A stretch of DNA of 49,124 bases, taken from the sequence record PZ715802.1. One strand, given 5' to 3'. The notes below the pieces were generated by a model. The model was not told where the DNA came from, made no database searches, and saw nothing but the letters and a program-made list of their open reading frames with translations. Both the position numbers and the translations under genes were made by a program. The DNA comes from a phage. This document shows, one piece after another, positions 20,843-46,865 of this stretch. Within the stretch, counting starts at the first letter, position 1, and each line of letters starts with the position of its first letter.

Positions 20843-23800
20843 ATGATCAAAAATATGATAACTGGCAGTAAGGGCGGTTCTTCAAAGCCTCATACACCTG
20901 TTGAAATGGAAGATAACCTAATTTCAATTAACAGGATCAGAATTCTTTTAGCCGTTTCTGATGGTGAAGTTGATCCAGACTTTTCATTGAAAGATTTATA
21001 TTTTGATGACGTTCCGGTTATGAATCAGGATGGTTCACTAAACTTTCAGAATGTTAAGGCAGAATTCAGACCAGGGACGCAAACGCAGGATTATATTCAG
21101 GGGTTTACTGATACAGCCAGCGAAATTACAGTTGCTCGCGATCTGACAGCCGCAACGCCTTATATTATTTCCGTGACTAATAAAAACCTTTCCGCGATCC
21201 GTATTAAAATTTTAATGCCGCGAGGGTTTACGCAGGAGGATAACGGAGATTTAACAGGTGTTCGCGTTGAATATGCTGTTGATATGGCTGTTGATGGTGC
21301 TGAATATAAAGAGGTTTTGCATGATGTAATTGAAGGTAAAACAATGAGCGGTTACGACAGAAGCCGACGAATTGATTTGCCTGCTTTTAATGAGCGTGTT
21401 TTATTGCGCGTCCGTCGCCTGGCAGATAGCACGTCAGCAAGGGTAACGGATCTGATTAAAATGCAAAGCTATGCGGAAGTTGTAGACGCTAAATTTCGTT
21501 ACCCCTTGACTGGTTTAGTATATGTTGAGTTTGACAGCGAATTATTCCCTAATGCGTTGCCGAATATCAGCATTAAGAAAAAATGGAAAATCATTAATGT
21601 TCCGTCAAATTATGATCCTATTTCCCGCACTTACTCAGGGTCATGGGATGGAACATGGAAAAAGGCATGGAGTAATAACCCTGCTTTTGTTCTGTATGAT
21701 TTGATTACCAATCAGCGTTACGGACTCGATCAAAGAGAATTAGGCATCGCGCTTGATAAATGGAGCATTTACGAATGTGCGCAGTATTGCGATCAGATGG
21801 TTCCAGACGGTAAAGGCGGAACAGAGCCGCGCTATCTTTGCGACGTTGTGATCCAGAGTCAAGTAGAGGCTTATCAGCTTGTGCGTGATATTTGTTCAAT
21901 CTTCCGTGGCATGAGCTTTTGGAATGGTGAGAGCCTTTCAATCGTGATCGATAAGCCTCGCGATGCGTCATACATCTTTACTAATGACAACGTGGTTAAC
22001 GGCGATTTCAGCTACACGTTTGCCAGCGAGAAAAGCATGTACACGCAATGCAACGTGACTTTCGACGACGAACAAAACATGTATCAACAGGACGTTGAGG
22101 GAGTTTTCGAAACGGAGGCGGCGTTACGATTTGGATATAACAGCACGTCAATTACTGCGATTGGATGCACACGACGCAGTGAGGCTAATCGCCGTGGTCG
22201 CTGGATTCTAAAAACCAACGTTAAGAGCACAACAGTTAACTTTGCTACTGGCCTGGAAGGTATGATCCCAACAATAGGTGATGTTATTGTTGTATCTGAT
22301 AACTTCTGGTCAAGTGCTCTAACGCTGAATCTATCAGGTCGCGTGATGGAGGTTAGCGGGTTGCAGGTGTTCACGCCGTTTAAGGTTGACGCAAGAGCAG
22401 GTGATCGCATTCTGGTAAATAAGCCAGATGGTAAGCCAGTTGGTCGAACCATTGCGCGTGTAAGTGATGACGGTAAAACGCTAACGCTAAACACGACATT
22501 TGGCTTTGACGTTCAGCCGGATACCATTTTTGCAATTGAGCGAACAGATATTGCACAGCAACGATATGTTGTAACCGGAATCACTAAGGGTGACGGTGAT
22601 GAAGAATTTACCTACAACATAACGGCTGTTGAATACGATCCTAACAAATACGATGAAATTGATTATGGCGTAAACATTGATGACCGTCCGACTTCAATCG
22701 TGCAGCCTGACATTTTGCCAGCACCGCAAAACGTCAAGATCGAATCTTATTCGCGAGTTGTTCAGGGTGCGAGCGTGGAAACAATGCACGTTTCATGGGA
22801 TAAGGTTGAATATGCAAGCCTTTATGAAATGCAGTGGAGAAAAGATAATGGCAACTGGAACAACACGCCGCGCACAGCCAACAAGGAAACGGAAGTTGAA
22901 GGTATTTACGCAGGAAACTATCACGTAAGGGTTAGATCTGTTGCAGCTAATGGTTCAGCGTCTGGATGGTCAGCAATTGTTAGCGCCGGATTAACTGGCA
23001 AAGTTGGCGAGCCAGAAAAGCCGATTAACCTTACAGCGTCTGACAATGAGGTTTTCGGCATTCGCGTAAAATGGGGTATGCCGGAGGGTTCTGGTGATAC
23101 AGCTTACATAGAGTTGCATCAAGCGCCGAACGGTGCTGATGGTCATCCTATTGTTGATGAAGCAACGCTCTTAACGCTGATACCGTTCCCGCAATATGAG
23201 TATTGGCATTCAATACTGCCAGCGGGTCATGTTGTCTGGTACAAGGCAAGGGCAGTTGACAAAATCGGGAATGTGTCTGATTGGACTGACTTTGTGCGCG
23301 GCATGGCTTCCGACGATACGAGCATTATCACGGATCATATTAAGGTCGATATTGAAAATTCTGATGGATATAAGTGGTTACAGGAAAACGCAATAAAGGC
23401 CAATGATAAGATCCACAGCACAGCGGAATCAGTGATTGAAAACGCATTAGCGAATGATAAAGATGTGCGACGTATGCGAGTTGAAAACGGCAAGCGTAAA
23501 GCGGAGTTCTTGCAATCGCTGAAACTCATTGCAGACGAAACAGAAGCAAGGGTAACGCAGGTCACTCAAATGAGTGCGCAATTTGACGAGAAATTAACGG
23601 CTCAAAATAGCGAATTGAGAGAGGTAATTGCTAACAGCACTGAAACCATTAGCCAAAGGATTGATCAGCTTACAGCTACGTTTGAGAGCGAAATTGATGG
23701 TGTTAAGCAGGATATCAAAGCACAGATAACTGATGTTAACCAGGCAATCACCAATGAAGCGGAAGCGCGAGCGTCAGCGGATAGGGCGTTATCAACTCAG

Positions 23801-24619
23801 ATTGGTGATACCCAATCAGCGGTGAATCAGAAACTTGATTCTTGGGTTAATGCCGATAGCGTTGGTACGATGTACGGCGTTAAGTTGGGGATCAGGTATA
23901 ACGGGCAGGAATATAGCGCAGGTATGGCGCTTTCTCTTGTCGCTGATGGTAGCGGAGTTAAATCACAATTCCTGTTTGATGCTGGACGATTTGCGATCAT
24001 CAATAATGCTCAAAGCGGAGCCTTTACATTGCCGTTTGTCGTTGAAAATAATCAGGTGTTTATCAATAGCTTACTTGTTAAAAATGGTTCTATCGGTAAT
24101 GCACAGATTGCAGATCAGATAAACTCTAACAACTGGAGTAGCGGCGCGGCTGGCTGGATGATTAATAAGAATGGTTATGCTGAATTTAACCAGGTAACTG
24201 TAAGGGGTGGCGTTTACGCATCATATGGTTCATTCACCGGAAGCGTTTACGCGCAAGATGGTTGGTTTAGGGGTACTGTTTACGCCGAAAAAATTGAGGG
24301 TGACGTTGCAAAGGCTGTTGTTCTTCCGTTTAACGGATCGGTTCACATTCCGGCGGTTAACTACAACAGACATCTTGTGATCCCTTATGTTGGTATTCAT
24401 GGGTACACATATTCAGGTGGTACATGGGGCGGCGGTACTGTTTGGGTTGATTCAACATATGGCGGTCGCCTTGCTAACGTTCAGGCAACTGCAATGCATG
24501 GCGGATCAAGTGGTTATGTTCTGTTGCCAGCAGGTAACGCAACTACGCTTTCATATGGTGGAAATCTAAACCACGCAAACGCAGTACCGATCTTAACAGT
24601 TCTGCTATTCAAAGCATAA
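20843..24619 (+). CDS. central tail fibre / host specificity protein (lambda J-like)
   Basis: 1258 aa; N-terminus GSKGGSSKPHTP and central PSNYDPISRTYSGSWDGTWK...YCDQMVPDGKGGTEPRY match lambda J as recalled. Confidence 0.85.
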   Translation: MIKNMITGSKGGSSKPHTPVEMEDNLISINRIRILLAVSDGEVDPDFSLKDLYFDDVPVMNQDGSLNFQNVKAEFRPGTQTQDYIQGFTDTASEITVARDLTAATPYIISVTNKNLSAIRIKILMPRGFTQEDNGDLTGVRVEYAVDMAVDGAEYKEVLHDVIEGKTMSGYDRSRRIDLPAFNERVLLRVRRLADSTSARVTDLIKMQSYAEVVDAKFRYPLTGLVYVEFDSELFPNALPNISIKKKWKIINVPSNYDPISRTYSGSWDGTWKKAWSNNPAFVLYDLITNQRYGLDQRELGIALDKWSIYECAQYCDQMVPDGKGGTEPRYLCDVVIQSQVEAYQLVRDICSIFRGMSFWNGESLSIVIDKPRDASYIFTNDNVVNGDFSYTFASEKSMYTQCNVTFDDEQNMYQQDVEGVFETEAALRFGYNSTSITAIGCTRRSEANRRGRWILKTNVKSTTVNFATGLEGMIPTIGDVIVVSDNFWSSALTLNLSGRVMEVSGLQVFTPFKVDARAGDRILVNKPDGKPVGRTIARVSDDGKTLTLNTTFGFDVQPDTIFAIERTDIAQQRYVVTGITKGDGDEEFTYNITAVEYDPNKYDEIDYGVNIDDRPTSIVQPDILPAPQNVKIESYSRVVQGASVETMHVSWDKVEYASLYEMQWRKDNGNWNNTPRTANKETEVEGIYAGNYHVRVRSVAANGSASGWSAIVSAGLTGKVGEPEKPINLTASDNEVFGIRVKWGMPEGSGDTAYIELHQAPNGADGHPIVDEATLLTLIPFPQYEYWHSILPAGHVVWYKARAVDKIGNVSDWTDFVRGMASDDTSIITDHIKVDIENSDGYKWLQENAIKANDKIHSTAESVIENALANDKDVRRMRVENGKRKAEFLQSLKLIADETEARVTQVTQMSAQFDEKLTAQNSELREVIANSTETISQRIDQLTATFESEIDGVKQDIKAQITDVNQAITNEAEARASADRALSTQIGDTQSAVNQKLDSWVNADSVGTMYGVKLGIRYNGQEYSAGMALSLVADGSGVKSQFLFDAGRFAIINNAQSGAFTLPFVVENNQVFINSLLVKNGSIGNAQIADQINSNNWSSGAAGWMINKNGYAEFNQVTVRGGVYASYGSFTGSVYAQDGWFRGTVYAEKIEGDVAKAVVLPFNGSVHIPAVNYNRHLVIPYVGIHGYTYSGGTWGGGTVWVDSTYGGRLANVQATAMHGGSSGYVLLPAGNATTLSYGGNLNHANAVPILTVLLFKA

Positions 24620-24741
24620 AAAGGAGGTAAATCAATGCCCTGGCTTAACGGTCGGGGCATTTTGTTTTCTTTTGTTCTACGGTGTTCACAACTTAATCCG
24701 GCGTAGAATTGAGAACGTTATGACAACAAAAAGAACAAATT

Positions 24742-24799
24742 AAATATCTATATAATACATACACTTAGAGTTTAATTATTATTATATATATCTATTTGT
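24742..24799 (+). repeat. AT-rich repeat copy A (AAATATCTATATAATACAT ... TAATTATTATTATATAT)
   Basis: direct sequence match to second copy at 45514-45570. Confidence 0.6.
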
Positions 24800-25024
24800 A
24801 TCCTTCTTGTTTCCATTGTTCTATATGGTTTGTGGTGGTTGTGTGTTTTGTATTGGTTGATGGTTATATATCACATGGTATGTATTTATATATGGTATGC
24901 GGCTTAAATGCGTGAACAATGGAACACTAAAACAACAACTAGTAAAATCATAAACTTACGATGTGATTTTGTTGTCAACGCTAGTTGTAAACGTATGCAA
25001 AACAAAAAGAACGCTTAAATGGTA

Positions 25025-25052
25025 TTGACTACATGAAACATTCACATATAAT
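25025..25052 (+). promoter_or_regulatory. sigma70 promoter TTGACT-N16-TATAAT
   Basis: near-consensus hexamers 25025-25030 and 25047-25052, about 30 nt upstream of exonuclease ATG. Confidence 0.5.
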
Positions 25053-25080
25053 GCAGACATACCAACGAGAGGATGACTAA

Positions 25081-26136
25081 ATGAGCGATTTTAAAGTTTA
25101 CACCTTTGACCAGTTAACCAACGGTGAATATCACGATCCGAAAGGCTGGTCGGCTGAATACGTTAGCGGTTCAAGCCTAGCAGAAATCTTTGCAAGTTGT
25201 CCGGCAGCATGGAAATACAGACCACGCGAGGAAAGCAAAGCGCTTGTTTTCGGTACGCAGTCACACACAAACTTCCAGAGTAGTGAGCTATTCGCAAAAG
25301 AGTACCGCAGAGCGCCAGCGCCGGAAGATTATGAAAACCTGATTACGAGCCAGGCAGCATTGGCAGCGAAATTAAAATCTTTTGGCCTGACTGGTACAAG
25401 CGGGAAAACGTATCCAGATCTGATTAAGATGATGGTTGATTGTGGTGAGGATCTAAATGTGCAATGGCTCATTGAAATGATCGCAGAAAGCCAAGCGCGA
25501 GCGGATAACGTTGAATTGGTTCCGGCTAAAGATTACGACGCTTGCGTTTCTATGCGCCGTGTTCTTGAGGCAATACCAGAGCACAACGCTTGCATGAATA
25601 GCCCAACAGCACAACGCGAGCTATCAATTTTCGGCACTATAAAAGGCGTGAAAGTCAAAGTAAGGCTTGACCATGTTGATATTTGCAAGGATGTGCTTGC
25701 AACGGTAATTTCCGGCTATGACGGTGAAGGGAATCCGGTTTATGAAACAACGCGATTTGATGAAGCGATTGTGATCACTGATTACAAAACAACGTCAAGC
25801 GCTAACCCAACGGAGTTTTCACGGCTGGCATTTAATCATGGTTACTACTTAAAAATGGCATTGCAGCACGACCTATTCAAGAAAGCGTATCCAGAAGAAA
25901 AACGACCTGTTGTTGTTCGACTTCTGGCGCAAGAAAAGAAAGAGCCGTTTTTACCTATCGCATACCGAATGACAGACGAGCAATTGAAGATCGGACGTCT
26001 GCAATACATGAGCGTTATCAACCAGTTTGCAGAATGCCAGGCTAATGACGTTTGGCCTTCATATGCAAACGGTGAGCCGGAAATTGACCTGCAAACGCCT
26101 GATTGGGTACGCAGACAATACAAAGGTTTTTTATAA
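25081..26136 (+). CDS. PD-(D/E)XK recombination exonuclease
   Basis: ORF track; GAGAGGA RBS; ITDYKTT motif; sits directly upstream of Erf and SSB. Confidence 0.6.
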   Translation: MSDFKVYTFDQLTNGEYHDPKGWSAEYVSGSSLAEIFASCPAAWKYRPREESKALVFGTQSHTNFQSSELFAKEYRRAPAPEDYENLITSQAALAAKLKSFGLTGTSGKTYPDLIKMMVDCGEDLNVQWLIEMIAESQARADNVELVPAKDYDACVSMRRVLEAIPEHNACMNSPTAQRELSIFGTIKGVKVKVRLDHVDICKDVLATVISGYDGEGNPVYETTRFDEAIVITDYKTTSSANPTEFSRLAFNHGYYLKMALQHDLFKKAYPEEKRPVVVRLLAQEKKEPFLPIAYRMTDEQLKIGRLQYMSVINQFAECQANDVWPSYANGEPEIDLQTPDWVRRQYKGFL

Positions 26137-26137
26137 A

Positions 26138-26179
26138 TAGCACTTTTTGCTAAAACAGCCATTCGATGCGTGGTATACT
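26138..26179 (+). promoter_or_regulatory. composite box element: TAGCActtttTGCTA, 21 nt, TATACT
   Basis: palindrome 26138-26152; -10-like hexamer in loop of gcgtg/cacgc hairpin. Confidence 0.55.
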
Positions 26180-27708: not shown

Positions 27709-30072
27709 TTACTTAGCAATCTGAACAAACATTGCTTGCATTTCCGCAATTGCGGCTTTCATTTCTGCGATCTCGTTTTTCAACTCTTTAATTTCCTCCT
27801 GTTGTTTCTCTATTTTTTCTTTCTGCTCTTTGAATGCGTTAACCAAAAGAGCTACAACGCCATTATAGTTAATGCCTTTGATTGCCTCGCCTTTTGGATC
27901 TAGCTGACCATCATTATTCAAAGAATGAACCGCTTCCGGCAAAACCCTTTCAACATCTTGTGCGATCAATCCAGCCTCAATACTATAAACGCTGTTTTCA
28001 TCTTCAATTAGATTGTTGCGCTTGTAGTAAGTATAACCAGTTAGATAATCAATTTTGTCGGATGCCGTTTCGATCTCTTTTAGATGTGCTTTCATCCTTA
28101 TGTCAGATGTGCTGATCCATTGGTTACAACTTGCATTTCCGGCGTGATTAAATATAAATTGCGCTCCCTTAACATAAAGATGTGTTTCAGCACCGCCACT
28201 CGACCAGTTAACGGCATCCATTCCAGTAATCCAAGAATCACCCCAATGAACAACCTTAAATACGTTAACGGCTGCGTCTTTTGCTGTAATCTCGCAAAGC
28301 ATTCCAGCACCACGATCACGCCAGGCATCAAAAGCGCCTTCCTGAATTTGACCGCCAATCATGGCATTTGCCCCACCAGACCTAATGCCAGCAACCCTAA
28401 TGCCGTTTGCATCGTCACTAATAGGCCATATACTCAATAACCCGTACATGTTAAAATCATTAGCTTGGCATGTTGCAATATTTCTACCGTTGCACATTAC
28501 TTGCAAAATGCCATCACCGCCCCACTTAAAACCTGTGTCAGTGTCACCAATTACTAACGCATTACTTCCAAGCGCATTACCAATACCCCTACCGATAACT
28601 ATTGAATTGTAATTTAGCGCGTTACCGCTTTCATCAAATTGATAATAGTTTGTATCACCTCCTTCCCTAGTGACTTGTATTGTTGATTTTGCTAATCCAC
28701 CTTGAATTTCGTTGTAAATTCTTGAGTATGAAAGCTGTACATTTTCTGGACTTTTGTTTATTAAATAAAGAATTCCAGAGTTTGCAGAGTTTTTTTCTGT
28801 TAGGCTTATCCCTCTAAAAACAGGAATGTCAGTTTCACCAATGCCAAAGTTATTCCTTGCTTGGCTTACGTTTGCTGCACCTGTGCCGCCCTGTAGAATT
28901 CCAAGAGGAATATACTGTTGCGATGCGATATTCCAGTAACCCCAACCATCGTTACCAACTGTAAGGTATTTGATCTTATCCGGCGACCGAATAAACGTTT
29001 CACCATCGCCCTGATCAAATCGGTCAATCTGGAAATTAATTCTTGCTTGCGTTACGTTTTCCGCACCAGTACCGCCAGCACCAACAGAAAGAGCGGATGT
29101 GCTGTTATCGCTATTTCTTGCAACTCGCCACTCGCCGTTGTTTGCGATCCGTAATTCATAAGTCCATGCAGGGTTACGAAATGAGTTATAATCACCTGGA
29201 TTTTGACCCTTAACTGAATTAACAGCCTCAACTTTCAGCGCCTCCCTTGCTAAATCTTTATTAGCAAGATCATTAAGATTCTGATCCTTATGCAGAAGGT
29301 TTTCAGGGTTAACTTGTTGTGCCCATTGGCGAGCTTCATCACGCGCAGTTTCAGCGCCTTGTTTAGCGTTTCCGGCTGCAACCTTTGATTGTTCAGCCAG
29401 ATCACGAGCTTCCACGGCTTCATCACGAGCGTTGAAAGCCTCCTGCTTAATGGCTTCCGTTTCTCTAACAGCAGCGTCTTTAATGCCTTGCGTTTGCGTC
29501 TTTATTGCGTCAGTGTCTGCCTTAATCTGATTGGTTTCATAAACAGCAGCATCCTTAATCCGTTGAGTTTCTGCAATCGCAGTATCTTTAATTTGCGTAG
29601 TCTCAGAAACAGCGGCATCCTTAATAGCTTGCGTGTCGTTTTTTAATTGCTCAGTTGCGGCGCGATCTGCATCCGTTTTTTGTGCGGAAGACTCAGCGCG
29701 AGCAACAAGATCCTGTAATGTTTTAAGGTCAAAGTTTTTGAAGAATTCAATTGCTTCCTCAATAACCGTTTCTTTACTTTGGTAATATCTCAGCGTTTCC
29801 GCAACATCTTGCGCCATTCCATCTACCGTTAAAGAGTCATTCAACAGGATCACATAATTTCCGTTTTCTACTGGCTCGCCGTCAGTCTGGATCGCTTTCA
29901 TTTCCGTGTCGCTTACAATATCGCTAATCACAGCCAATTTAAGAGGCGATGTGAGAAATACGATTGTTGCGCCAGTGCGGATAAGAGAAAGCGGCTCACG
30001 CCATTTTGTGCCAGTACCAGTGATAACGCCTTGTGCGTCCATTGCAGCCGTACCAGTGCGATATAAAGCCAT
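27709..30072 (-). CDS. side tail fibre with C-terminal intramolecular chaperone domain
   Basis: 787 aa; internal tandem IKDAAV.ET repeats; C-terminus DYLTGYTYY...IEAGLIAQDVERVLPEAV typical of self-cleaving chaperone domains. Confidence 0.8.
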   Translation of the reverse strand: MALYRTGTAAMDAQGVITGTGTKWREPLSLIRTGATIVFLTSPLKLAVISDIVSDTEMKAIQTDGEPVENGNYVILLNDSLTVDGMAQDVAETLRYYQSKETVIEEAIEFFKNFDLKTLQDLVARAESSAQKTDADRAATEQLKNDTQAIKDAAVSETTQIKDTAIAETQRIKDAAVYETNQIKADTDAIKTQTQGIKDAAVRETEAIKQEAFNARDEAVEARDLAEQSKVAAGNAKQGAETARDEARQWAQQVNPENLLHKDQNLNDLANKDLAREALKVEAVNSVKGQNPGDYNSFRNPAWTYELRIANNGEWRVARNSDNSTSALSVGAGGTGAENVTQARINFQIDRFDQGDGETFIRSPDKIKYLTVGNDGWGYWNIASQQYIPLGILQGGTGAANVSQARNNFGIGETDIPVFRGISLTEKNSANSGILYLINKSPENVQLSYSRIYNEIQGGLAKSTIQVTREGGDTNYYQFDESGNALNYNSIVIGRGIGNALGSNALVIGDTDTGFKWGGDGILQVMCNGRNIATCQANDFNMYGLLSIWPISDDANGIRVAGIRSGGANAMIGGQIQEGAFDAWRDRGAGMLCEITAKDAAVNVFKVVHWGDSWITGMDAVNWSSGGAETHLYVKGAQFIFNHAGNASCNQWISTSDIRMKAHLKEIETASDKIDYLTGYTYYKRNNLIEDENSVYSIEAGLIAQDVERVLPEAVHSLNNDGQLDPKGEAIKGINYNGVVALLVNAFKEQKEKIEKQQEEIKELKNEIAEMKAAIAEMQAMFVQIAK

Positions 30073-30226: not shown

Positions 30227-31153
30227 TTATAATAAGTCACTTGCCTTGTAAAGCCTCCGCTCTATTCCATTTTTGAATTTACCGTTAATTGGTAGCATTA
30301 CGTCTAATTCTCGATCATCAGCAGCAATCAAAGTGTCGCGATCATTAGCATGGCACACAACGCGCATTTTGCGATCTCCTTTGTATCTGTATGCAACAAT
30401 TTCAAGATTTGAAGGTGAAAAACACGCCCATACTTCTTGCCCCGTCGCCATGTGTATATGTTGCGCATCAATCCAATCAACGCAAAGGTAAATTGTTTTG
30501 TCAGTCTTGCCAGTTACTGCAACGCTTCCGCGCGTGTAATCTTTCGCGTAAAAACTGCTTTTACCTTCCTCATTGACGAAAAGAATATTGCACATGTCAT
30601 CATCCAATTCATCACTATGCACCAGGTGGCAAGGAATAGCGTGTATATGCTCGCAATATCCATTTTCATGAGTTTTTACGCCCACTTGATACGATTCGCC
30701 GTCTAATGGATAAAACGCCTCAAAAACGCTTAGATTTGTTATTTCCATGCGTTCAGTTTTATCCATAACCTCAACACATTTTTCATGAGGCGCTTGAGAT
30801 CCGAAGTTGTAACCGGAATCACGCTTTGCCGCTTTGTTAGCCTTGTTGACAACCTCAACCGGAACCAGGTTTAACCATTCGCCTAGCGTGTCGATTGCTT
30901 CACTGTAATTTTCACCACGTATGCGCATGAATAATCCGATCCCTGAATCATTCCCGCATTGGTTGCAAATGTTTCCGCCGTCGCCTTTCTCGTTGATTTT
31001 GTCAGTCCAACGAAAGCGATCTTTACCGCCGCAATAAGGGCAAGGCTGATGCTTTCCGTTAAAGGTTAATTGAGGAATATCACAAAGTTTCATCAATGCC
31101 GCTTGCCACATGCCGCGCATCTTTGGGATCACTTCTTCTTTTTGATAATGCAT
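30227..31153 (-). CDS. DNA primase (zinc-ribbon type)
   Basis: ORF track; GGAGG RBS; CPYCGGKDRFRW...CNQCG zinc-ribbon motif. Confidence 0.55.
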   Translation of the reverse strand: MHYQKEEVIPKMRGMWQAALMKLCDIPQLTFNGKHQPCPYCGGKDRFRWTDKINEKGDGGNICNQCGNDSGIGLFMRIRGENYSEAIDTLGEWLNLVPVEVVNKANKAAKRDSGYNFGSQAPHEKCVEVMDKTERMEITNLSVFEAFYPLDGESYQVGVKTHENGYCEHIHAIPCHLVHSDELDDDMCNILFVNEEGKSSFYAKDYTRGSVAVTGKTDKTIYLCVDWIDAQHIHMATGQEVWACFSPSNLEIVAYRYKGDRKMRVVCHANDRDTLIAADDRELDVMLPINGKFKNGIERRLYKASDLL

Positions 31154-31211: not shown

Positions 31212-31820
31212 TTAGCAATCAGTGCTATCGACGGAAATCACAACGCGTTTCTTCTGATTGGCTTCCTTTGCTTTGCGCCGTTCTTCTTTCGCCTTGTCGC
31301 GTTCAGCTTTGCGCCGCGCTTTCTCCTTCTCGCGTTCTTCTGGAGTCATAGACCGTAACGGATCGTAAGGCCGGACAAATCCCCTTGCTTCCGCTTCCTC
31401 TTTGGTTACAAATCGCATTAGCTTTCTGTTGCTGCAACGATTCTCTAATGGCTTGCCGTTATTATCAAATTTGATATCTGGACGGCAATATGAAGCGCGG
31501 AAGCCGTTAAAACCTTTGCGTCGGTAATCTTTCTGGATCAGTTCAGCGCCTTTAGTTGAAATCATGCCGCGCTCTTTCCATCCCCATACTGTTTTAAGGT
31601 TAACGCCAATTTCACGCGCCAGGGCAGCGCAACCGCCGTAAGCGTTGACAACTTCATCAAGCCGCGCTTTTAATCCGGCTCTTACTTCTTCCTTTAATAC
31701 AAGATAACCGCTAACAGGTGCGCGACGTTTACGATCTTTACCACGTCTTACGCCGTTGTTACCATTGATTGTGCGTTTGTCGATTTCGCCAGTTGATGCA
31801 GCAATTTTGATTTCGCTCAT
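31212..31820 (-). CDS. HTH DNA-binding protein (Cro/YdaS-like) with basic C-terminal tail
   Basis: ORF track; helix-turn-helix-like CAALAREIGVNLKTVWGWK; Lys/Arg/Glu-rich C-terminus; weak RBS. Confidence 0.55.
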   Translation of the reverse strand: MSEIKIAASTGEIDKRTINGNNGVRRGKDRKRRAPVSGYLVLKEEVRAGLKARLDEVVNAYGGCAALAREIGVNLKTVWGWKERGMISTKGAELIQKDYRRKGFNGFRASYCRPDIKFDNNGKPLENRCSNRKLMRFVTKEEAEARGFVRPYDPLRSMTPEEREKEKARRKAERDKAKEERRKAKEANQKKRVVISVDSTDC

Positions 31821-31831
31821 ATTTTTATATA

Positions 31832-31873
31832 TAGCACTTTTTGCTAAAAAACTTGATTAAGTTTGTGTATGAT
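31832..31873 (+). promoter_or_regulatory. composite box element: TAGCActtttTGCTA, 21 nt, TATGAT
   Basis: palindrome 31832-31846 upstream of helicase ATG 31909. Confidence 0.55.
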
Positions 31874-31897
31874 ATGCCGCAAATGGCATTTAGTCAA
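31869..31897 (-). promoter_or_regulatory. sigma70-like promoter TTGACT-N17-TATCAT for HTH gene, face-to-face with box element
   Basis: read on minus strand; its -10 (31869-31874) overlaps the + strand -10 (31868-31873). Confidence 0.45.
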
Positions 31898-35446: not shown

Positions 35447-35677
35447 ATGAGCATTCGATTAGCCGATCACATGAAATGGGATTTATTTGTTGGTATGACA
35501 ATTCGCTTACTTGATAAGCATGGTTATAACGCTGATAAAATGGAGTTGATAAACTGCCTGGATATGACATTTGACGAAATAAAAGTTGCGCCTTTGTACA
35601 TGTGGGAAAGAAAAATTGAGCACGACCTGATACAATACAAACGCAGAGAGGGCGCACGATTTTTCAATGTGAAATAG
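35447..35677 (+). CDS. hypothetical protein
   Basis: ORF track; stop codon is TAG of box. Confidence 0.45.
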   Translation: MSIRLADHMKWDLFVGMTIRLLDKHGYNADKMELINCLDMTFDEIKVAPLYMWERKIEHDLIQYKRREGARFFNVK

Positions 35678-35717
35678 CACTTTTTGTTAAAACCCGCTTC
35701 GGCGGGTTTTGTATTAT
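35675..35717 (+). promoter_or_regulatory. composite box element: TAGCActtttTGTTA, 22 nt, TATTAT
   Basis: palindrome 35675-35689; spacer hairpin cccgc/gcggg followed by TTTT also looks terminator-like. Confidence 0.55.
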
Positions 35718-38828: not shown

Positions 38829-38871
38829 AATATACCCGATACAAGATCGGGTGTTTTAACAAAAAGTGCTA
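38829..38871 (-). promoter_or_regulatory. composite box element (minus): TAGCActtttTGTTA, 22 nt, TATATT
   Basis: palindrome 38857-38871; spacer hairpin cccgat/atcggg. Confidence 0.55.
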
Positions 38872-39066
38872 TTCAAAGCGCCTGACGTGAATTAGTAGTT
38901 CACCGTCATCATTTGTTAACTGGTGCTCATTATCTTCAAACGCTCGCATATCACTGTAAAGCAACAACATTAGTGCATAGACAAAATCATCATGCGAAAT
39001 TTGCATTGCTGAACTTTCTTTCAAAATAAGATCTATCAAATGCTGGCTTGCTGAATAATTCTTCAT
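38869..39066 (-). CDS. hypothetical protein (overlaps 38990-39382; status uncertain)
   Basis: track ORF; stop codon coincides with TAG of the box, as for several other genes. Confidence 0.3.
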   Translation of the reverse strand: MKNYSASQHLIDLILKESSAMQISHDDFVYALMLLLYSDMRAFEDNEHQLTNDDGELLIHVRRFE

Positions 39067-39384: not shown

Positions 39385-40965
39385 TTACCCCATTAACGCC
39401 GGATTTACATAAACAAATTTACCAACGCTGCAAACATAATTCTTTTCTTCAAGCATTGGCAATAATTGTTCCTCAATTCGTTTCATCACGCCTGATTGAC
39501 CTGTAAACGGCTTAACCTTACGCGCACTTTCATAGATAGCTCTTGCATTGGTAACGCCTTTATTTTGACGTGAGATCTTAATGATTATTTCAATTAACTT
39601 GCTCATTTCTGCATCATCGCCAGCGTGACCGGAAGCATTCGCGGCGTTGATATATGTTTTGCTTAATTCGCTGAACATCACCAAAGCCTCTTGCATTGTC
39701 TCAACTTCAATTTCTCGCGACTTTTGCGGCGTACCGTTTGGATTAAACCAATTGCGGATCGTGTGCAATACTGACGCAATGCGGATCACTTGCTTATCCA
39801 TTTTGCCCAAAGCACCACGCAACATTGTATGTGAATATTTCCCGCCGTCTGCTAAATCTGGCTCTAATTGCTGGCGAGCAATATTAAGAACACGCATTGC
39901 AGAACGTGACGGCTTCAATACAACATTTTGCTCAGTCATGATGTTATGAATCAACTGGAAATATTGCGCCTTTAATTCTTTATCAACTGGCGTGTAATCA
40001 AGATCACCATTTTCATCAATAAATACACGCTCGCCTAACATTGTTTTTTCACGTACAAGTAAGAAACGTTCACTAACACCGATACCACGCGCCCCTGCAT
40101 CCATGATCCCTTTTATCGTTTCATCCTGGGCAATTACGCTCATGCAGCCCAACGCAACAAAACTCATATTGTTTTCAGAGTTGGCGCGAGCTATTGAAAC
40201 GTGTCCGGCGTCCCATGCTTTTAGAACCAATTCGCTGTTAGTCTTGCGATCACTATTAGCGTAAGTCAATCCGAGTAAGCTGTTGATGCTTGTTGCTTCA
40301 TCGGAAATAACAGCAAAGTTACCCTGGCGATTGTTGATCTTTGCTAACCCTTCCGGCGTGGTGTCTGATACCGGAAAAACGATATCGCACATTTTTTCTA
40401 ACTTTTCCTCTAATTCCTCCTTTTCCTCAAACAACGCAGCTAACTCAGTGCCGGAACGTTCAGCTTTCAATTCCTTTTCAACGCCTTTTAATTTCGCTGC
40501 GATCTTCTTTCGCTCTTTCTTGCGTTGTTCGTTGATGCGCTCAACTTCACAGACCATTGGCGCAATAGCCAGGCTGTTGATTGCTGATTTACCAGTTGAT
40601 GGCGGCTGACTGGTTACAACGTAAAGCGCCGTTGGTTGTTCAGTGCCGTGGTACTCAACTTGGAAGCGTCCAACCATAGCGGCGGAAACGCAACCTATGA
40701 AATGCATATAGGCCGATGATTCAGGAAATTGAACAGATTGCGCAATGCTACGTGACAGTTTACCCACAACATCAACATCATTACCCAAAGAGATCACAGG
40801 ATAACGGTCATTAGCGCCGTTGATATCCTTCACAGGTTCCCAAAAGCTGGACGATTGGCGGTAGCCGTTCGACTGAATAGCAACGCGAAGCGGCGATGTT
40901 CCCTGCGATTCTGCAATGGCTATAACTTGTTGAGGTGTCAATTTGTTGGTGTCAAAGTCAAACAT
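39385..40965 (-). CDS. Walker-A ATPase, possibly replication-associated
   Basis: 526 aa; AAGGAGA RBS; SQPPSTGKSA P-loop-like motif; box element upstream. Confidence 0.5.
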   Translation of the reverse strand: MFDFDTNKLTPQQVIAIAESQGTSPLRVAIQSNGYRQSSSFWEPVKDINGANDRYPVISLGNDVDVVGKLSRSIAQSVQFPESSAYMHFIGCVSAAMVGRFQVEYHGTEQPTALYVVTSQPPSTGKSAINSLAIAPMVCEVERINEQRKKERKKIAAKLKGVEKELKAERSGTELAALFEEKEELEEKLEKMCDIVFPVSDTTPEGLAKINNRQGNFAVISDEATSINSLLGLTYANSDRKTNSELVLKAWDAGHVSIARANSENNMSFVALGCMSVIAQDETIKGIMDAGARGIGVSERFLLVREKTMLGERVFIDENGDLDYTPVDKELKAQYFQLIHNIMTEQNVVLKPSRSAMRVLNIARQQLEPDLADGGKYSHTMLRGALGKMDKQVIRIASVLHTIRNWFNPNGTPQKSREIEVETMQEALVMFSELSKTYINAANASGHAGDDAEMSKLIEIIIKISRQNKGVTNARAIYESARKVKPFTGQSGVMKRIEEQLLPMLEEKNYVCSVGKFVYVNPALMG

Positions 40966-41673: not shown

Positions 41674-41715
41674 TTATGCCGGATACGTGATCCGGCGTTT
41701 TAACAAAAAGTGCTA
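41674..41715 (-). promoter_or_regulatory. composite box element (minus): TAGCActtttTGTTA, 21 nt, CATAAT
   Basis: palindrome 41701-41715; spacer hairpin gccggatc/gatccggc. Confidence 0.55.
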
Positions 41716-42408
41716 TTTCTGATTTGCCAGGCATACAGCAAGCGCAAAGCCGCGCGGAGTGAGTGAGCGGATCAGCTTTGTTCGCTTAGACTTGCCGCCG
41801 AGCTTTTGCCAGCCTGGATTGTTGTTCCCTGTTGGCAATACTGCGTTTGTATCCGGCATTACAAAGCCGTTACCCGTCCAAAGACAAGTTTTTTTGGTGT
41901 ACGCATCGCGAGCGGGAATGATTTCAGGAAAGTGAGGATGTTTATCATCTTCCGGCAACAGACCTCCAAACGCGCAAGGATGAAAGATAAAATCAGGTTG
42001 CCGCCACATTGACGACAGAACACTAACAGGATTCTCAATCATGTATGGAACGTTAAACCGATCCGCAATATTGGCAGCAATCTTTGCCGTTTCAACCGCC
42101 TTTTTCTGGAAGTCTGGATCACGTTCACGCTTTGCGGCAAAGTGACGCGATCCACTAACAGCTAAATCAGTGCATGGAGGGAATGCAATAATAAAATCTG
42201 GAGTGCCAAAGACGCGCATCATTGCGTTATGCTGGAATGATAATCCGATCCACTCATTCAAATAAACTATGTTGGGATGAGTCACGCGCACTGATTGGTA
42301 ATCACCATGATCAGCACCGTCGAAATTAAAGCACAGCACTTTGTGACCACGTTCAGCCCACGGCAACGCAGCATAACCAGAACCATCAAATAGTGAGAAA
42401 ATAAGCAT
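41713..42408 (-). CDS. compact DNA cytosine-5 methyltransferase-like protein
   Basis: internal ATG of track ORF 41713-42462 with AAAGGA RBS; motif I LFDGSG, motif IV FPPC, motif VI ENP with spacing as in M.HhaI-type enzymes; only about 231 aa. Confidence 0.5.
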   Translation of the reverse strand: MLIFSLFDGSGYAALPWAERGHKVLCFNFDGADHGDYQSVRVTHPNIVYLNEWIGLSFQHNAMMRVFGTPDFIIAFPPCTDLAVSGSRHFAAKRERDPDFQKKAVETAKIAANIADRFNVPYMIENPVSVLSSMWRQPDFIFHPCAFGGLLPEDDKHPHFPEIIPARDAYTKKTCLWTGNGFVMPDTNAVLPTGNNNPGWQKLGGKSKRTKLIRSLTPRGFALAVCLANQK

Positions 42409-43823: not shown

Positions 43824-43866
43824 ATTATGCCAAAACAAACCGGATCGCTTTTAACAAAAAGTGCTA
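43824..43866 (-). promoter_or_regulatory. composite box element (minus): TAGCActtttTGTTA, 22 nt, CATAAT
   Basis: palindrome 43852-43866. Confidence 0.55.
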
Positions 43867-43968
43867 TTTAATTAAAATACTAATACCTTTTCGCACGCTT
43901 TCCGTCGCCTCCGTAATGGTCATTAGCAACAGCAAGAATCCAAGCGTTAGGAATAAAAAATAGCTTCA

Positions 43969-45152: not shown

Positions 45153-45195
45153 ATCATAGCAATTCGCGTCTGATTGGTTTTAACAAAAAGTGCTA
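45153..45195 (-). promoter_or_regulatory. composite box element (minus): TAGCActtttTGTTA, 22 nt, TATGAT
   Basis: palindrome 45181-45195; first promoter of the minus-strand block. Confidence 0.55.
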
Positions 45196-45205
45196 TTCAT
45201 GCAAT

Positions 45206-45233
45206 AGACCGATTGGTCTAGACCGTTTGGTCT
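45206..45233. promoter_or_regulatory. operator-like tandem 14-bp palindromic repeats AGACCGATTGGTCT / AGACCGTTTGGTCT
   Basis: two adjacent copies differing at one base; includes perfect 10-bp palindrome GGTCTAGACC. Confidence 0.45.
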
Positions 45234-45269
45234 AATGAACGCATCGTTTTGTGTATCGAACGCATTCAT

Positions 45270-45297: not shown

Positions 45298-45513
45298 AGA
45301 TGATGATTGATGTGTGAGATTTTGTGATTGAAATTGATTTGATTTGATTAGATTTGAGTAGTGAGTGAGTAGAAATAATCACACCTTGCCGATCAGTGAA
45401 AACTTTTCCCGCAAAACATCACTCCATGCTCCGCGCGTTTCGTTTTGTTCCTCGTTGTTTTCCGCCAGACCTTCCGCAGTTTAGCGCAACGTTACACAAC
45501 ACGTATAACAACA

Positions 45514-45570
45514 AAATATCTATATAATACATTGAAAAGTAAGATAATTATTATTATATATCTATATTGT
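45514..45570 (+). repeat. AT-rich repeat copy B
   Basis: matches copy A at 24742-24799. Confidence 0.6.
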
Positions 45571-45784
45571 TATATAACTTGTTTTGCTTGTTTCTTGTGA
45601 TATTGATACCCATTTGCGGATTGATAGAGTATAAAATTATAAGATAGGTGCTCTTATTTATTATGGGTGATGCTGATTTTTTGCGAAATAGTGTAACGAT
45701 TTAGAACACCGTTGATTTGAAAGGATAAATTTTCAAATCCTGTTATATTGCGTGATGTTTTTGTTGCCTAATCAAAAATAACAC

Positions 45785-45812
45785 TTGACGCATAAGCCAG
45801 GTTTGCTAAGAT
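45785..45812 (+). promoter_or_regulatory. sigma70-like promoter TTGACG-N16-TAAGAT
   Basis: hexamers at 45785-45790 and 45807-45812, about 35 nt upstream of ATG 45847. Confidence 0.45.
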
Positions 45813-45846
45813 TTCTGCATCGAGCAACAACGGAGGATAACCAATC

Positions 45847-46134
45847 ATGGTAAGGGGCAAAATCGTAAAGCGTGACCTATCCATAGTTGATGCAACGCCA
45901 GAAGATGCAACCAAAGATATCATGCGCCTAATGTACATAGCGCGGATAATTGAGGCGGCAAAACCAAACAGGCTGTATTACATCGACGTTAAGGCATCCG
46001 GTCGAGATGTTAACTCATTGCGCCAGGCAATAAACACGATTGCGAAAGAGGATCGCAGAACCATTAAAACAATAACCACTGATAACGGCTATATCGGCTT
46101 TGTTATCATCGACGTTAAAGAAGCGTTTGTGTAA
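45847..46134 (+). CDS. hypothetical protein
   Basis: ORF track; GGAGGA RBS. Confidence 0.5.
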   Translation: MVRGKIVKRDLSIVDATPEDATKDIMRLMYIARIIEAAKPNRLYYIDVKASGRDVNSLRQAINTIAKEDRRTIKTITTDNGYIGFVIIDVKEAFV

Positions 46135-46145
46135 AGAGGTGAATC

Positions 46146-46589
46146 ATGGAACAAATGACAAGTAAAGAGTTTTGCGATAAATTGCGCGAAGCTGCAAGAG
46201 CCGCTGCAACAGGTGAAGTGATCAAGTTGCCAGTTGCCTATATCACAATGCACGTTCAGGCAGAGGACGCAAAGAAACTAAATTCATCATACATCCGCAC
46301 GATCATGAATCGCGTACCGGAAGTAAAAGAGGTTGGATCTGTAAGTGTCAAGAAAAAGACAAGTGATGACGGCGCGGAGTATTACGAGATCGCAATCAAC
46401 CGCGACACAAAACGCCGCATAGTGACAACTAATGACCTTCCGGCAATCAAAGAGCATGAGCGCGAAAAGCTGGTTGAAAAGATTATGCGCATATCGCCAG
46501 ACTTCTCACACCTGGACGATGAAAAGGCACTTGTTGCAATGCGAGCGGTTGCCACGTTCAAAGATCTGATTAAGGAGATCTCAAAGTGA
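46146..46589 (+). CDS. hypothetical protein
   Basis: ORF track; AGAGGTG RBS. Confidence 0.5.
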   Translation: MEQMTSKEFCDKLREAARAAATGEVIKLPVAYITMHVQAEDAKKLNSSYIRTIMNRVPEVKEVGSVSVKKKTSDDGAEYYEIAINRDTKRRIVTTNDLPAIKEHEREKLVEKIMRISPDFSHLDDEKALVAMRAVATFKDLIKEISK

Positions 46590-46822
46590 AAGCATTCGCC
46601 TTTGTCGCTGCAATGTGGTGTGTCGTTATTGATAGTCCTGGCGTGGCGCTGGTTGTTCTTGGCTTGATATTGTTGGGGGCGTTTGATGAATAAGAAACTT
46701 TTAGATCATGCCGTGGTGTTCTTTATCGCTGCTGCTGGATTTTCGCTGTTGTCAATTGCTTTTTCAATCCTTGCTTTTGCTGTGTCAATGCTGAAATGAC
46801 GGATTACATCCTGATTGGTAAA

Positions 46823-46865
46823 TAGCACTTTTTGTTAAAACTCGATTGGGGTAGTTTGGCATAAT
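46823..46865 (+). promoter_or_regulatory. composite box element: TAGCActtttTGTTA, 22 nt, CATAAT
   Basis: palindrome 46823-46837; spacer hairpin ggggta/tacccc. Confidence 0.6.

What the first reader, a model, noticed from the sequence alone, without database searches (positions are those of the whole stretch)
24620..25080. 460-bp non-coding AT- and GT-rich region between the tail and recombination modules
This gap contains a weak hairpin after the J gene, one copy of a conserved AT-rich repeat (24742-24799), a GT-rich low-complexity stretch (24820-24900, repeated TGGT and ATGGTATG) and a near-consensus sigma70 promoter (25025-25052) for the exonuclease-Erf-SSB operon. No ORF of 60 aa or more is present, unusual in so compact a genome. 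It is a candidate origin, packaging signal or regulatory hub.
Basis: partly seen in the sequence, partly recalled or inferred. Interest (0 to 1): 0.55.

Follow-up and report, generated by a model that had tools for sequence, protein, structure and literature searches.

The report
Duplicated origin-like module in T1-like phage
The 460-bp gap is one of two ancient copies of a non-coding DNA module (short helically spaced repeats around the most easily melted DNA of the genome, ending in a host-type early promoter). It is the best candidate so far for the unknown replication origin of T1-like phages, but no experiment has tested this.

Summary
The window is a Tlsvirus (T1-like, Drexlerviridae) genome.

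The "AT-rich repeat" is the tip of something larger. The whole gap (24664-25080, module A) is paralogous to 45437-45845 (module B), which lies about 120 bp right of the pac site mapped in phage TLS. The same A/B pair occurs in phage T1 and in 13 of 14 other Drexlerviridae genomes checked.

Each module contains 5-6-nt iterons (WWACA/TGTWW) spaced 9-10 bp apart. They are strictly oriented and converge on an AT core, which is the least stable duplex in the genome. Further elements are GC boxes, a C-poor GT spacer, IHF-like boxes, and a promoter-proximal iteron pair abutting a sigma70 promoter. Iteron sequence changes between lineages while the layout persists.

The module is under purifying selection and is neither coding nor a structured RNA.

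The phage encodes an MCM-like helicase with a C-terminal winged helix, resembling SaPI Rep and SCCmec Cch, plus a P4-alpha-type primase.

Best reading (confidence about 0.45): a self-loading-helicase origin coupled to an early promoter. The main rival is an early-promoter control array. A packaging signal is not supported for module A.

The parts
24634..24676 (+). Intrinsic terminator of the tail (J) operon: hairpin 24634-24661 followed by a T-run. It forms the left boundary of the module.
   Evidence: free energy -18.3 kcal/mol, z -4.5. Annotated as a terminator in phage Stevie.
24663..24690 (.). Left outer iteron set: TGTT at 24663, 24673 and 24683, exactly 10 bp apart. The last copy reads TGTTCAC.
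   Evidence: Conserved across genera. Orientation map over 19 modules.
24698..24709 (.). GC box 1, CCGGCGTAGAAT. Related CCGCAG or CGGCGTAG boxes occur at the same place in nearly all modules.
   Evidence: Read from the module sequences. Also present in the distant phage L185.
24723..24739 (.). Forward iteron pair ACAACAAAAAGAACAAA (AACA at 24725 and 24734), pointing toward the AT core.
24740..24799 (.). AT core, a candidate DNA-unwinding element. It contains the 19-mer 24742-24760 and TAATTATTATTATATATATCTAT at 24773-24795.
   Evidence: One of the two least stable 100-bp duplex windows of the genome: -103.9 kcal/mol against a mean of -135 +/- 6.5. It is the most conserved block across genera, with nucleotide diversity 0.035 within Tlsvirus.
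24806..24822 (.). Inverted iteron pair CTTGTTTCCATTGTTCT (TGTT at 24808 and 24817), pointing back toward the AT core.
24823..24898 (+). GT-rich, C-poor spacer that ends in a second small AT patch. The composition is conserved in Tempevirinae modules while the sequence is not.
   Evidence: C is 3 of 79 bases. Nucleotide diversity 0.033 within Tlsvirus. Variable between genera.
24899..24912 (.). GC box 2, GCGGCTTAAATGCG.
24912..24939 (.). Right forward iteron set GTGAACAATGGAACACTAAAACAACAAC (AACA at 24915, 24923, 24931 and 24934).
24944..24974 (.). Conserved box AAAATCATAAACTTACGATGTGATTTTGTTG. It is IHF-like (AATCATAAACTTA is one mismatch from WATCAANNNNTTR) and has weak dyad symmetry.
   Evidence: Perfect IHF cores occur at this position in other genera: 20 in all modules against 2.1 +/- 1.4 in shuffles. 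Nucleotide diversity 0.027. As an RNA hairpin it is not significant, z -0.8.
24999..25013 (.). Promoter-proximal A-rich box AAAACAAAAAGAACG (AACA at 25001, then GAACG), a near repeat of the forward pair 24723-24739. Other modules have a full iteron pair at this place.
25025..25052 (+). Sigma70 promoter TTGACT-16-TATAAT for the recE-erf-ssb operon. It is an integral part of the module.
   Evidence: 11 of 12 positions. Equivalent to TLS promoter P51. The -35 and -10 are conserved in all genera.
45437..45845 (+). Module B, the paralogue of the whole gap. AT core at about 45504-45603, promoter TTGACG-16-TAAGAT at 45785-45812 heading the left-end early operon. It lies about 120 bp right of the position equivalent to the TLS pac site (~45317).
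39385..40965 (-). Candidate trans factor (inferred): the DUF3987 protein, an MCM-like AAA+ helicase with a C-terminal winged helix at residues 449-519.
30227..31153 (-). Candidate trans factor (inferred): a primase homologous to the N-terminal primase domain of P4 alpha.
   Evidence: BLASTP E 2e-14. Pfam Zn_Ribbon_Prim.

Best explanation
The gap is module A of a pair of paralogous, about 420-bp, non-transcribed DNA modules that act as nucleoprotein assembly sites. They are most likely replication origins of the self-loading-helicase type, each physically coupled to a host-type early promoter.

Proposed mechanism:
- A phage protein binds the 5-6-nt iterons, which sit on one face of the helix and converge on the AT core from both sides. 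The best candidate is the MCM-like DUF3987 helicase acting through its C-terminal winged helix.
- IHF-type bending and the negative supercoiling generated behind the divergently firing early promoter help melt the AT core, the least stable duplex of the genome.
- The helicase loads there, and the P4-alpha-type primase and host Pol III start synthesis.
- The C-poor GT-rich strand next to the core may be a strand-specific loading or priming zone.

Shown here: the paralogy, the anatomy, the statistics, the conservation, the lack of coding or RNA signal, and the fold of the helicase.

Inferred: who binds the iterons, that the core melts, and that replication starts here.
For: Paralogy and distribution
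- Module A aligns with module B over its whole length, score 165 against 55 +/- 9 for shuffles.
- The same pair occurs in T1, score 175 against 73 +/- 10. All six genomic copies of TGTAACA in T1 lie inside its two modules.
- The pair is found in 13 of 14 other Drexlerviridae contigs, scores 129-246 against about 45 +/- 8.

Iteron arrangement
- Across 19 non-redundant modules, AACA/TGTT occurs 276 times against 103 +/- 9 in shuffles.
- Same-orientation spacing peaks at 9-10 bp, 68 cases against about 1.2 expected.
- Orientation is fixed: TGTT, then AACA, then the AT core, then TGTT, then the spacer, then AACA.
- In the window alone, module A has 6 helically spaced pairs against 0.44 expected (P < 0.001). 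This is the top-scoring place in the genome.

Melting and host-factor sites
- The two AT cores are the two least stable 100-bp duplexes, about 5 SD from the genome mean.
- IHF cores sit at two fixed positions in other genera, 20 against 2.1 expected.

Selection and exclusion of coding or RNA function
- Nucleotide diversity is 0.058 in the module against 0.144-0.175 at third codon positions of the flanking genes.
- There is no ORF, the small-ORF start codon is not conserved, and indels are not multiples of three.
- There is no Rfam hit and no RNA structure on the + strand.

Lineage-specific iterons in a constant layout
- Variants are GAACA, ATAACA, TAAACA, GTAACA, TGTAAT, GTATAC and TACGC, GGTAAG, CGGAGG and CCCCC.
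- In the distant phage L185 the module lies directly upstream of the DUF3987 helicase gene.

Trans factors
- The helicase is MCM-like with a C-terminal winged helix and resembles SCCmec Cch and a SaPI Rep.
- That winged helix is its fastest-evolving domain within Drexlerviridae.
- SaPI Reps use a C-terminal winged helix to bind penta- or hexanucleotide iterons, with at least two on each side of a central AT-rich region pointing in opposite directions (PMC9371898). This is the arrangement seen around the AT core here.
- The primase is homologous to that of P4 alpha. P4 origin iterons are TGTTCACC or TGTTCACA, and the module contains TGTTCAC and GTGAACA.

Literature
- The 2024 TLS paper reports that no origin could be identified.
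Against: - There are no experimental data on replication, binding or melting.
- The modules are not next to the helicase gene. Module B is 4.5 kb away and module A about 14 kb away, unlike SaPI origins.
- Modules A and B of a single genome can carry different iteron variants, for example AGAACA against ATAACA. One binder would have to accept WWACA.
- L100 and L185 share GGTAAG iterons, yet their winged helices are no more alike than the rest of the protein.
- The predicted recognition helix is rather acidic.
- The promoter is an integral, invariant part of every module. The promoter-proximal iteron pair abuts the -35, which equally suits a transcriptional role.
- Cumulative GC skew simply follows gene orientation and shows no feature at module A.
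- There is no enrichment of DnaA boxes or GATC sites.
Confidence: 0.45

Rival explanations
1. The module is an early-promoter control region. The iterons are operators or enhancer sites for a phage or host regulator that activates, or later shuts off, the two module-linked sigma70 early promoters. IHF bending and the AT core build a repressosome- or enhanceosome-like complex. Replication does not start here.
For: - Every module ends in a sigma70 promoter with an iteron pair abutting the -35.
- Modules A and B carry two of the only three intergenic sigma70 promoters reported for TLS.
- The forward pair plus TTAAAT plus TATAAT in the AT core mirrors the promoter-proximal pair plus CTTAAAT plus the real promoter. 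This suggests a duplicated promoter unit.
- Module B and the first genes downstream of it are exchanged together between close relatives. TLS and the window have identical helicases, but their B modules are about 50% identical and their DUF7174 proteins 40% identical.
Against: - The third sigma70 promoter (P57, window 31869-31897) has no iterons, so iterons are not a general early-promoter feature.
- About 360 bp of constrained upstream DNA, with the genome's melting minimum 270 bp from the promoter, is more than promoter control usually needs.
- The only obvious regulator, the Cro-like HTH protein, fits the palindromic 21-nt repeat better than direct 5-mers do.
- No -35 accompanies the TATAAT in the AT core. 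The spacer to AGAACA is only 13 nt.
Confidence: 0.3
2. The module is a terminase recognition or packaging region, comparable to lambda cosB or SPP1 pacL/pacR. In this reading module B is the true pac recognition site and module A a secondary or vestigial one.
For: - Module B starts about 120 bp from the position equivalent to the TLS pac site.
- TLS pac was placed only by restriction mapping plus resemblance to a P22 hexamer.
- Helically phased short repeats with IHF sites are typical of terminase small-subunit sites (own knowledge of lambda cosB).
Against: - Module A is 20.7 kb from pac.
- TLS and T1 show a single packaging series starting at the left end (the T1 record's terminal repeat is 1-2800).
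- Module A is more conserved than module B.
- The pac-proximal TTGAT repeats at 45334-45361 are absent from module A.
- In L185 the module sits upstream of the helicase gene, not near packaging genes.
Confidence: 0.07
3. The module is passive structural DNA. Phased A/T-tracts give intrinsically curved, easily melted DNA that binds host nucleoid proteins (IHF, Fis, H-NS or an OmpR/ArcA-type winged-helix regulator) and merely boosts or insulates strong early promoters.
For: - AACAAAAAGAACAAA-type tracts are phased at 9-10 bp.
- IHF cores are enriched.
- WWACA resembles half-sites of OmpR/PhoB-family regulators (own knowledge, not tested).
Against: - In related phages the iterons are GC-rich or unrelated (CCCCC, GGTAAG, CGGAGG) in the same layout. 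Curvature or a single host factor does not explain this.
- Strict orientation rules are not needed for curvature.
Confidence: 0.1
4. The gap encodes a small protein or a non-coding RNA.
For: - Some records annotate 36-aa ORFs here (YSP2, LL5, BubbaBully).
- A conserved TATAAT lies in the AT core.
Against: - The ATG of the 36-aa ORF is ATC in other genera, and indels are not multiples of three.
- There is no Rfam match.
- The + strand RNA fold has z = 0.18.
- The spacer sequence is not conserved between genera.
- The region lies between a strong terminator and the promoter.
Confidence: 0.03

Closest known systems
Replication origins of SaPI pathogenicity islands and their self-loading Rep helicases, with the related SCCmec Cch helicase
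   Same: - Penta- or hexanucleotide iterons, at least two on each side of a central AT-rich region, pointing in opposite directions (PMC9371898). The AT core here has the same arrangement.
- The element encodes an AAA+ helicase with a C-terminal winged helix and a separate primase.
- Iterons are lineage-specific.
   Different: - SaPI origins lie immediately downstream of rep. Here the modules are 4.5 kb and about 14 kb from the helicase gene.
- There are two modules per genome.
- Each module is about 420 bp and carries extra outer iteron sets, GC boxes, a C-poor spacer, IHF-like boxes and an integral sigma70 promoter.
- Binding has not been tested.
Satellite phage P4 ori plus crr, bound by the alpha primase-helicase
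   Same: - Two separated cis elements carry the same short iterons at helical spacing around AT-rich DNA (record annotation).
- The P4 iteron TGTTCACC or TGTTCACA shares its core with the window's TGTTCAC (24683-24689) and GTGAACA (24912-24918).
- The primases are homologous, E 2e-14.
   Different: - No homologue of the alpha C-terminal origin-binding domain is present.
- The helicase belongs to a different clade (MCM-like rather than SF3).
- The window has only single copies of the full heptamer, and its general iteron is the looser WWACA.
- P4 ori is not fused to an early promoter.
Bacillus phage SPP1 oriL and oriR (own knowledge, not tested here)
   Same: Two origins per virulent-phage genome, far apart, each with initiator boxes next to an AT-rich region.
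   Different: The SPP1 initiator G38P and its boxes are unrelated, and oriL lies inside the initiator gene.
Iteron-plasmid origins such as pSC101 and R6K (own knowledge; reviews listed)
   Same: Iterons, an AT-rich unwinding element, an IHF site, and inverted iterons overlapping a promoter.
   Different: - Plasmid iterons are 17-22 bp and are bound by RepA-type winged-helix initiators.
- DnaA boxes are present in plasmids but not enriched here.
- The plasmid promoter drives rep, not recombination genes.
T4 ori(uvsY) and oriF: promoter plus unwinding element (own knowledge)
   Same: An origin physically coupled to a promoter and an easily melted element.
   Different: In T4 the unwinding element lies downstream of the promoter and an R-loop primes synthesis. 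Here the AT core is 270 bp upstream and transcription runs away from it.

Membership tests
Self-loading-helicase origin (SaPI Rep / SCCmec Cch type) | At least two short (5-6 nt) iterons on each side of a central AT-rich region, in opposite orientation | tested here: met
   AACA at 24725 and 24734, then the AT core 24740-24799, then TGTT at 24808 and 24817. The same orientation map holds over 19 modules.
Self-loading-helicase origin (SaPI Rep / SCCmec Cch type) | The central AT-rich region is a plausible melting site | tested here: met
   The two modules hold the two least stable 100-bp duplex windows of the genome, -102.7 and -103.9 kcal/mol against a mean of -135 +/- 6.5.
Self-loading-helicase origin (SaPI Rep / SCCmec Cch type) | The element encodes an AAA+ helicase-initiator with a C-terminal winged-helix domain | tested here: met
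Self-loading-helicase origin (SaPI Rep / SCCmec Cch type) | The origin lies immediately next to the rep (helicase) gene | tested here: not met
   The helicase gene is at 39385-40965. Module B is 4.5 kb away and module A about 14 kb away. The feature is met only in the distant phage L185.
Self-loading-helicase origin (SaPI Rep / SCCmec Cch type) | The helicase binds the iterons specifically, melts the origin, and the origin supports replication | not testable with these tools
   Needs gel-shift or footprinting, permanganate probing, and plasmid-amplification or marker-frequency experiments.
P4 ori/crr | Arrays of the octamer TGTTCACC (type 1 iterons) | tested here: inconclusive
   P4 iterons were verified from the record. 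The window has one TGTTCAC and one GTGAACA. The other sites are the looser TGTTY or RAACA.
P4 ori/crr | An alpha protein with a C-terminal origin-binding domain | tested here: not met
   tblastn of the alpha C-terminus against the window gives nothing below E 0.6. Only the primase domain is homologous.
Lambda-type or plasmid iteron origin | Iterons of 17-22 bp and DnaA boxes | tested here: not met
   The repeats are 5-6 nt at 9-10 bp spacing. One DnaA-like box with one mismatch occurs in module A against 0.99 expected, and none in module B.
pac site / terminase recognition region | Coincides with the mapped start of headful packaging | tested here: not met
   TLS record position 1, the mapped pac site, maps to window ~45317. 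Module A is 20.7 kb away. Module B is adjacent but distinct.
Sigma70 promoter | -35 and -10 hexamers with a 16-18 nt spacer, conserved in relatives | tested here: met
   TTGACT-16-TATAAT, 11 of 12 positions. Conserved in all genera. Listed as P51 in TLS.
Intrinsic terminator | A stable GC-rich hairpin followed by a U-run | tested here: met
Any Rfam RNA family | A covariance-model match at or near the gathering score | tested here: not met
   No hit at gathering threshold. The only hit at the relaxed threshold is rimP, E 0.6, lying over the terminator.

The most novel reading that the evidence does not exclude
T1-like phages (Drexlerviridae) and more distant relatives replicate from a previously unrecognised class of origin. 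It is a conserved AT-rich melting core flanked by lineage-specific 5-6-nt iterons, recognised by a phage MCM-like self-loading helicase. In Drexlerviridae it is duplicated into two origins, each fused to one of the host-type early promoters, so that early transcription and origin firing are coupled. This would give the first origin(s) of replication for one of the classical T phages and a bacterial-virus example of MCM-type origin licensing.
Probability: 0.4. Interest if true: 0.7.

Novelty: new variant of a known kind. Interest (0 to 1): 0.6.

Why it matters
T1 is one of the seven classical T phages, and its relatives are common therapy candidates and laboratory contaminants. Their origin of replication has never been located. 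The 2024 re-annotation of the archetype TLS states that no origin-like repeats were found anywhere in the genome.

This analysis gives two precise candidate loci that are conserved across the family, and it names candidate trans factors. The question becomes directly testable.

If confirmed, three things would follow:
- DUF3987 proteins would be shown to be MCM-like initiator-helicases.
- A SaPI-like origin logic would be shown to operate in virulent enterobacterial phages.
- A handle would exist for engineering, for example origin-based plasmid amplification or replication-defective phages.

If the modules instead control early promoters, they would still define the early regulatory switch of this family.

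Tried and rejected
- **Small protein.** The 36-aa ORF at 24908-25018 is annotated in some records. Its start codon and reading frame are not conserved.
- **Structured RNA.** There are no Rfam hits, and the + strand fold has z 0.18. The z of -4.3 on the minus strand comes from pairing between regions of the module that carry the inverted iterons, so it is not evidence for an RNA.
- **Tandem repeats.** Tandem Repeats Finder finds none in the gap. ATGGTATG occurring twice is not significant.
- **oriC-like features.** DnaA boxes are not enriched, and the gap contains no GATC.
- **GC skew.** It follows gene orientation only.
- **P4 alpha origin-binding domain.** No homologue is present, and the helicase is not similar to alpha by BLASTP.
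- **The Cro-like HTH protein next to the primase as iteron binder.** Its fold is plain Cro. It fits the palindromic core TAGCA-N6-TGCTA of the 21-nt repeat better, so it was set aside.
- **Co-variation of the winged helix with iteron type.** L100 and L185 share GGTAAG iterons without extra winged-helix similarity, so the result is inconclusive.
- **Scanning IMG/VR for the AT-core 20-mer.** Hits were mostly chance matches in AT-rich giant viruses.
- **Concerted evolution of A and B.** Not seen. A modules group with A modules of other genomes.
- **Literature searches** for T1-like transcriptomes or origin mapping found nothing relevant.

Full report
**What the window is.** The 49-kb window is a complete or nearly complete Tlsvirus genome (Drexlerviridae, T1-like). 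It is 98.6% identical to Salmonella phage phSE-2 across the region. The finding is the gap between the J-like tail-tip gene (20843-24619) and the recE-like exonuclease gene (25081-26136).

**Observation check.**
- The hairpin at 24634-24661 with its T-run is a strong intrinsic terminator, not a weak hairpin. Its free energy is -18.3 kcal/mol, z -4.5, and phage Stevie annotates it as a terminator.
- The promoter TTGACT-16-TATAAT at 25025-25052 matches 11 of 12 positions. It corresponds to P51, one of only three intergenic sigma70 promoters found in phage TLS.
- The GT-rich stretch has 3 C in 79 bases. Its "repeats" are not significant.
- The longest ORF is 39 aa.

**The repeat is a whole-module paralogy.**
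- The 19-mer AAATATCTATATAATACAT is exact at 24742 and 45514, with 0.03 matches expected. These are the only two 60-nt windows of at least 82% A+T in the genome.
- Beyond that, 24664-25080 (module A) aligns end to end with 45437-45845 (module B), score 165 against 55 +/- 9 for shuffles.
- Module B is the right part of the large divergent intergenic region. Position 1 of the TLS record, which its authors placed at the mapped pac site, corresponds to window ~45317, about 120 bp left of module B.
- Both modules end in a sigma70 promoter and the ribosome-binding site of a rightward early operon.
- Phage T1 has the same pair, score 175 against 73 +/- 10. All six copies of TGTAACA in the T1 genome lie inside its two modules.
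- In 13 of 14 further Drexlerviridae contigs where both loci could be recovered, module A aligns with a module B, scores 129-246 against about 45 +/- 8.
- A modules are orthologous across genera, with median identity 0.6. B modules are far more variable, at 0.46-0.5, and there is no concerted evolution of A and B.

**Anatomy, left to right**.
1. Terminator.
2. Three TGTT iterons exactly 10 bp apart (24663, 24673, 24683).
3. GC box CCGGCGTAGAAT.
4. A forward AACA pair (24725, 24734).
5. The AT core (24740-24799).
6. An inverted TGTT pair (24808, 24817).
7. The C-poor GT spacer, ending in a small AT patch.
8. A second GC box.
9. Three to four forward AACA iterons (24915-24934).
10. A conserved IHF-like box, AAAATCATAAACTTACG...ATTTTGTTG.
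11. A promoter-proximal A-rich box with AACA at 25001, followed by the -35. Other modules have a full iteron pair at this place.

**Statistics.**
- Over 19 non-redundant modules, AACA/TGTT is 2.7-fold enriched (276 against 103 +/- 9). Same-orientation spacing is sharply peaked at 9-10 bp (68 against about 1.2 expected), and orientation relative to the AT core is fixed.
- In the window alone, module A has 6 helically spaced pairs against 0.44 expected. This is the top-scoring place in the genome.
- The two AT cores are the two least stable 100-bp duplexes, -102.7 and -103.9 kcal/mol against -135 +/- 6.5.
- Perfect IHF cores occur at two fixed positions in many modules, 20 against 2.1 +/- 1.4. 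In the window's own modules the best site has one mismatch.

**Constraint, and what the module is not.**
- Within Tlsvirus, nucleotide diversity is 0.058 in the module. It is 0.144-0.175 at third codon positions of the flanking genes and 0.02-0.035 at first and second positions.
- The module is not coding. The start codon of the small ORF is lost in other genera and indels are not multiples of three.
- It gives no RNA signal.
- It lies between a strong terminator, or in other genera a divergent promoter, and its own promoter. This points to a DNA-level function.

**Iterons change while the layout stays.**
- The dominant hexamer, present in both orientations, differs by lineage and sometimes by module. 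Examples are GAACA, ATAACA, TAAACA, GTAACA (T1), TGTAAT, and GTATAC or GTAAC.
- Rtp-like and other Drexlerviridae use TACGC or GTATAC, GGTAAG, or CGGAGG.
- Two distant phages share only the helicase module, at 38-39% identity. Each has one module with the same plan: CCCCC iterons in L113 and GGTAAG iterons in L185.
- In L185 the module sits directly upstream of the helicase gene.
- The AT core motif (TTA)n(TA)nTCTAT is retained throughout.
- This pattern argues for sequence-specific proteins with evolving specificity. It argues against intrinsic curvature or a single host factor.

**Trans factors.**
- That winged helix is the protein's fastest-evolving domain within Drexlerviridae.
- The primase is homologous to the P4 alpha primase domain.
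- P4 origin iterons are TGTTCACC or TGTTCACA, which share their core with the window's TGTTCAC and GTGAACA. No homologue of the alpha origin-binding domain exists in the window.
- The HTH protein next to the primase is a plain Cro fold. It more plausibly reads the palindromic core of the known 21-nt repeat.

**Interpretation.**
- The central arrangement is at least two 5-6-nt iterons on each side of an AT-rich centre, in opposite orientation, together with a helicase carrying a C-terminal winged helix and a separate primase. This is what is described for SaPI origins and their self-loading Rep helicases (PMC9371898).
- I therefore favour a replication-origin function, coupled to an early promoter whose divergent transcription could aid melting. 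Confidence is 0.45.
- Binding, melting and initiation are all inferred.
- The main rival, at 0.3, is an early-promoter control array. The promoter and the iteron pair abutting it are integral to every module. Against this, the third sigma70 promoter lacks iterons.
- A packaging role is unlikely for module A (0.07). Passive curved DNA or a host-factor site (0.1) and a small gene or RNA (0.03) are disfavoured.

**Novelty.** Neither the T1 or TLS records nor the stretch of the Stevie record examined annotates anything here beyond the terminator. The 2024 TLS paper states that no origin-like repeats exist in the genome. The module pair and its iteron grammar therefore appear to be undescribed. The kind of element (iterons plus an unwinding element) is known. 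The variant is new in being duplicated, fused to a promoter, about 420 bp long, carrying a C-poor spacer, and associated with an MCM-like helicase.

Noticed in passing
window, about 20 copies, e.g. 26133-26155, 31827-31849, 35670-35692, 46818-46840; minus-strand copies at 38852-38873, 41697-41718, 43849-43869, 45176-45197: A 21-nt repeat, AAATAGCACTTTTTGYTAAAA, lies upstream of many genes and always in the direction of transcription. It is already described for TLS with unknown function. Its core is an imperfect palindrome (TAGCA-N6-TGCTA), which would suit a dimeric Cro-like protein such as the HTH protein at 31212-31820 (Cro fold). The TTGCTA part could serve as a -35.
   Followed up: partly
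window 45205-45234: Two tandem 14-bp palindromic units (TAGACCGATTGGTC, TAGACCGTTTGGTC) lie between the leftward promoter repeat and the pac-equivalent position. They look like an operator.
   Followed up: no
window 45325-45361: A TTGAT / TTGATTAGAT short tandem array lies at the position equivalent to the start of the TLS record, the mapped pac site (AGATTT). It is absent from module A, so it is a better candidate for the actual pac recognition or cleavage region.
   Followed up: partly
window 39385-40965 (-): The DUF3987 'helicase' of T1-like phages is structurally an MCM-like AAA+ protein with a C-terminal winged helix. No solved structure is detectable by sequence.
   Followed up: yes
window 31869-31897 (-): The third host-type promoter (TTGACT-17-TATCAT) drives the Cro-like gene and the primase. 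Its -35 context, TTGACTAAAYGC, also occurs at the recE promoter of other genera.
   Followed up: partly
public records OR786094.1, MG065643.1 and related entries: A 'Streptococcus phage MBBL140' record is about 94% identical to this Tlsvirus region. Several 'Campylobacter phage' records carry Drexlerviridae-like sequence. These host assignments are probably wrong, or the records are contaminated.
   Followed up: no
window 45847-46589 compared with TLS 589-1038: Module B and the first downstream genes behave as an exchangeable cassette. TLS and the window have identical helicases, yet their B modules are about 50% identical and their DUF7174 proteins 40% identical.
   Followed up: partly
other genera (L003, L006, T1 29623-29850): In other Drexlerviridae a cor-like superinfection-exclusion gene on the opposite strand lies between J and module A. 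In W011D and vojen its 21-nt promoter repeat occupies the place that the J terminator has in Tlsvirus. Tlsvirus lacks cor here.
   Followed up: no
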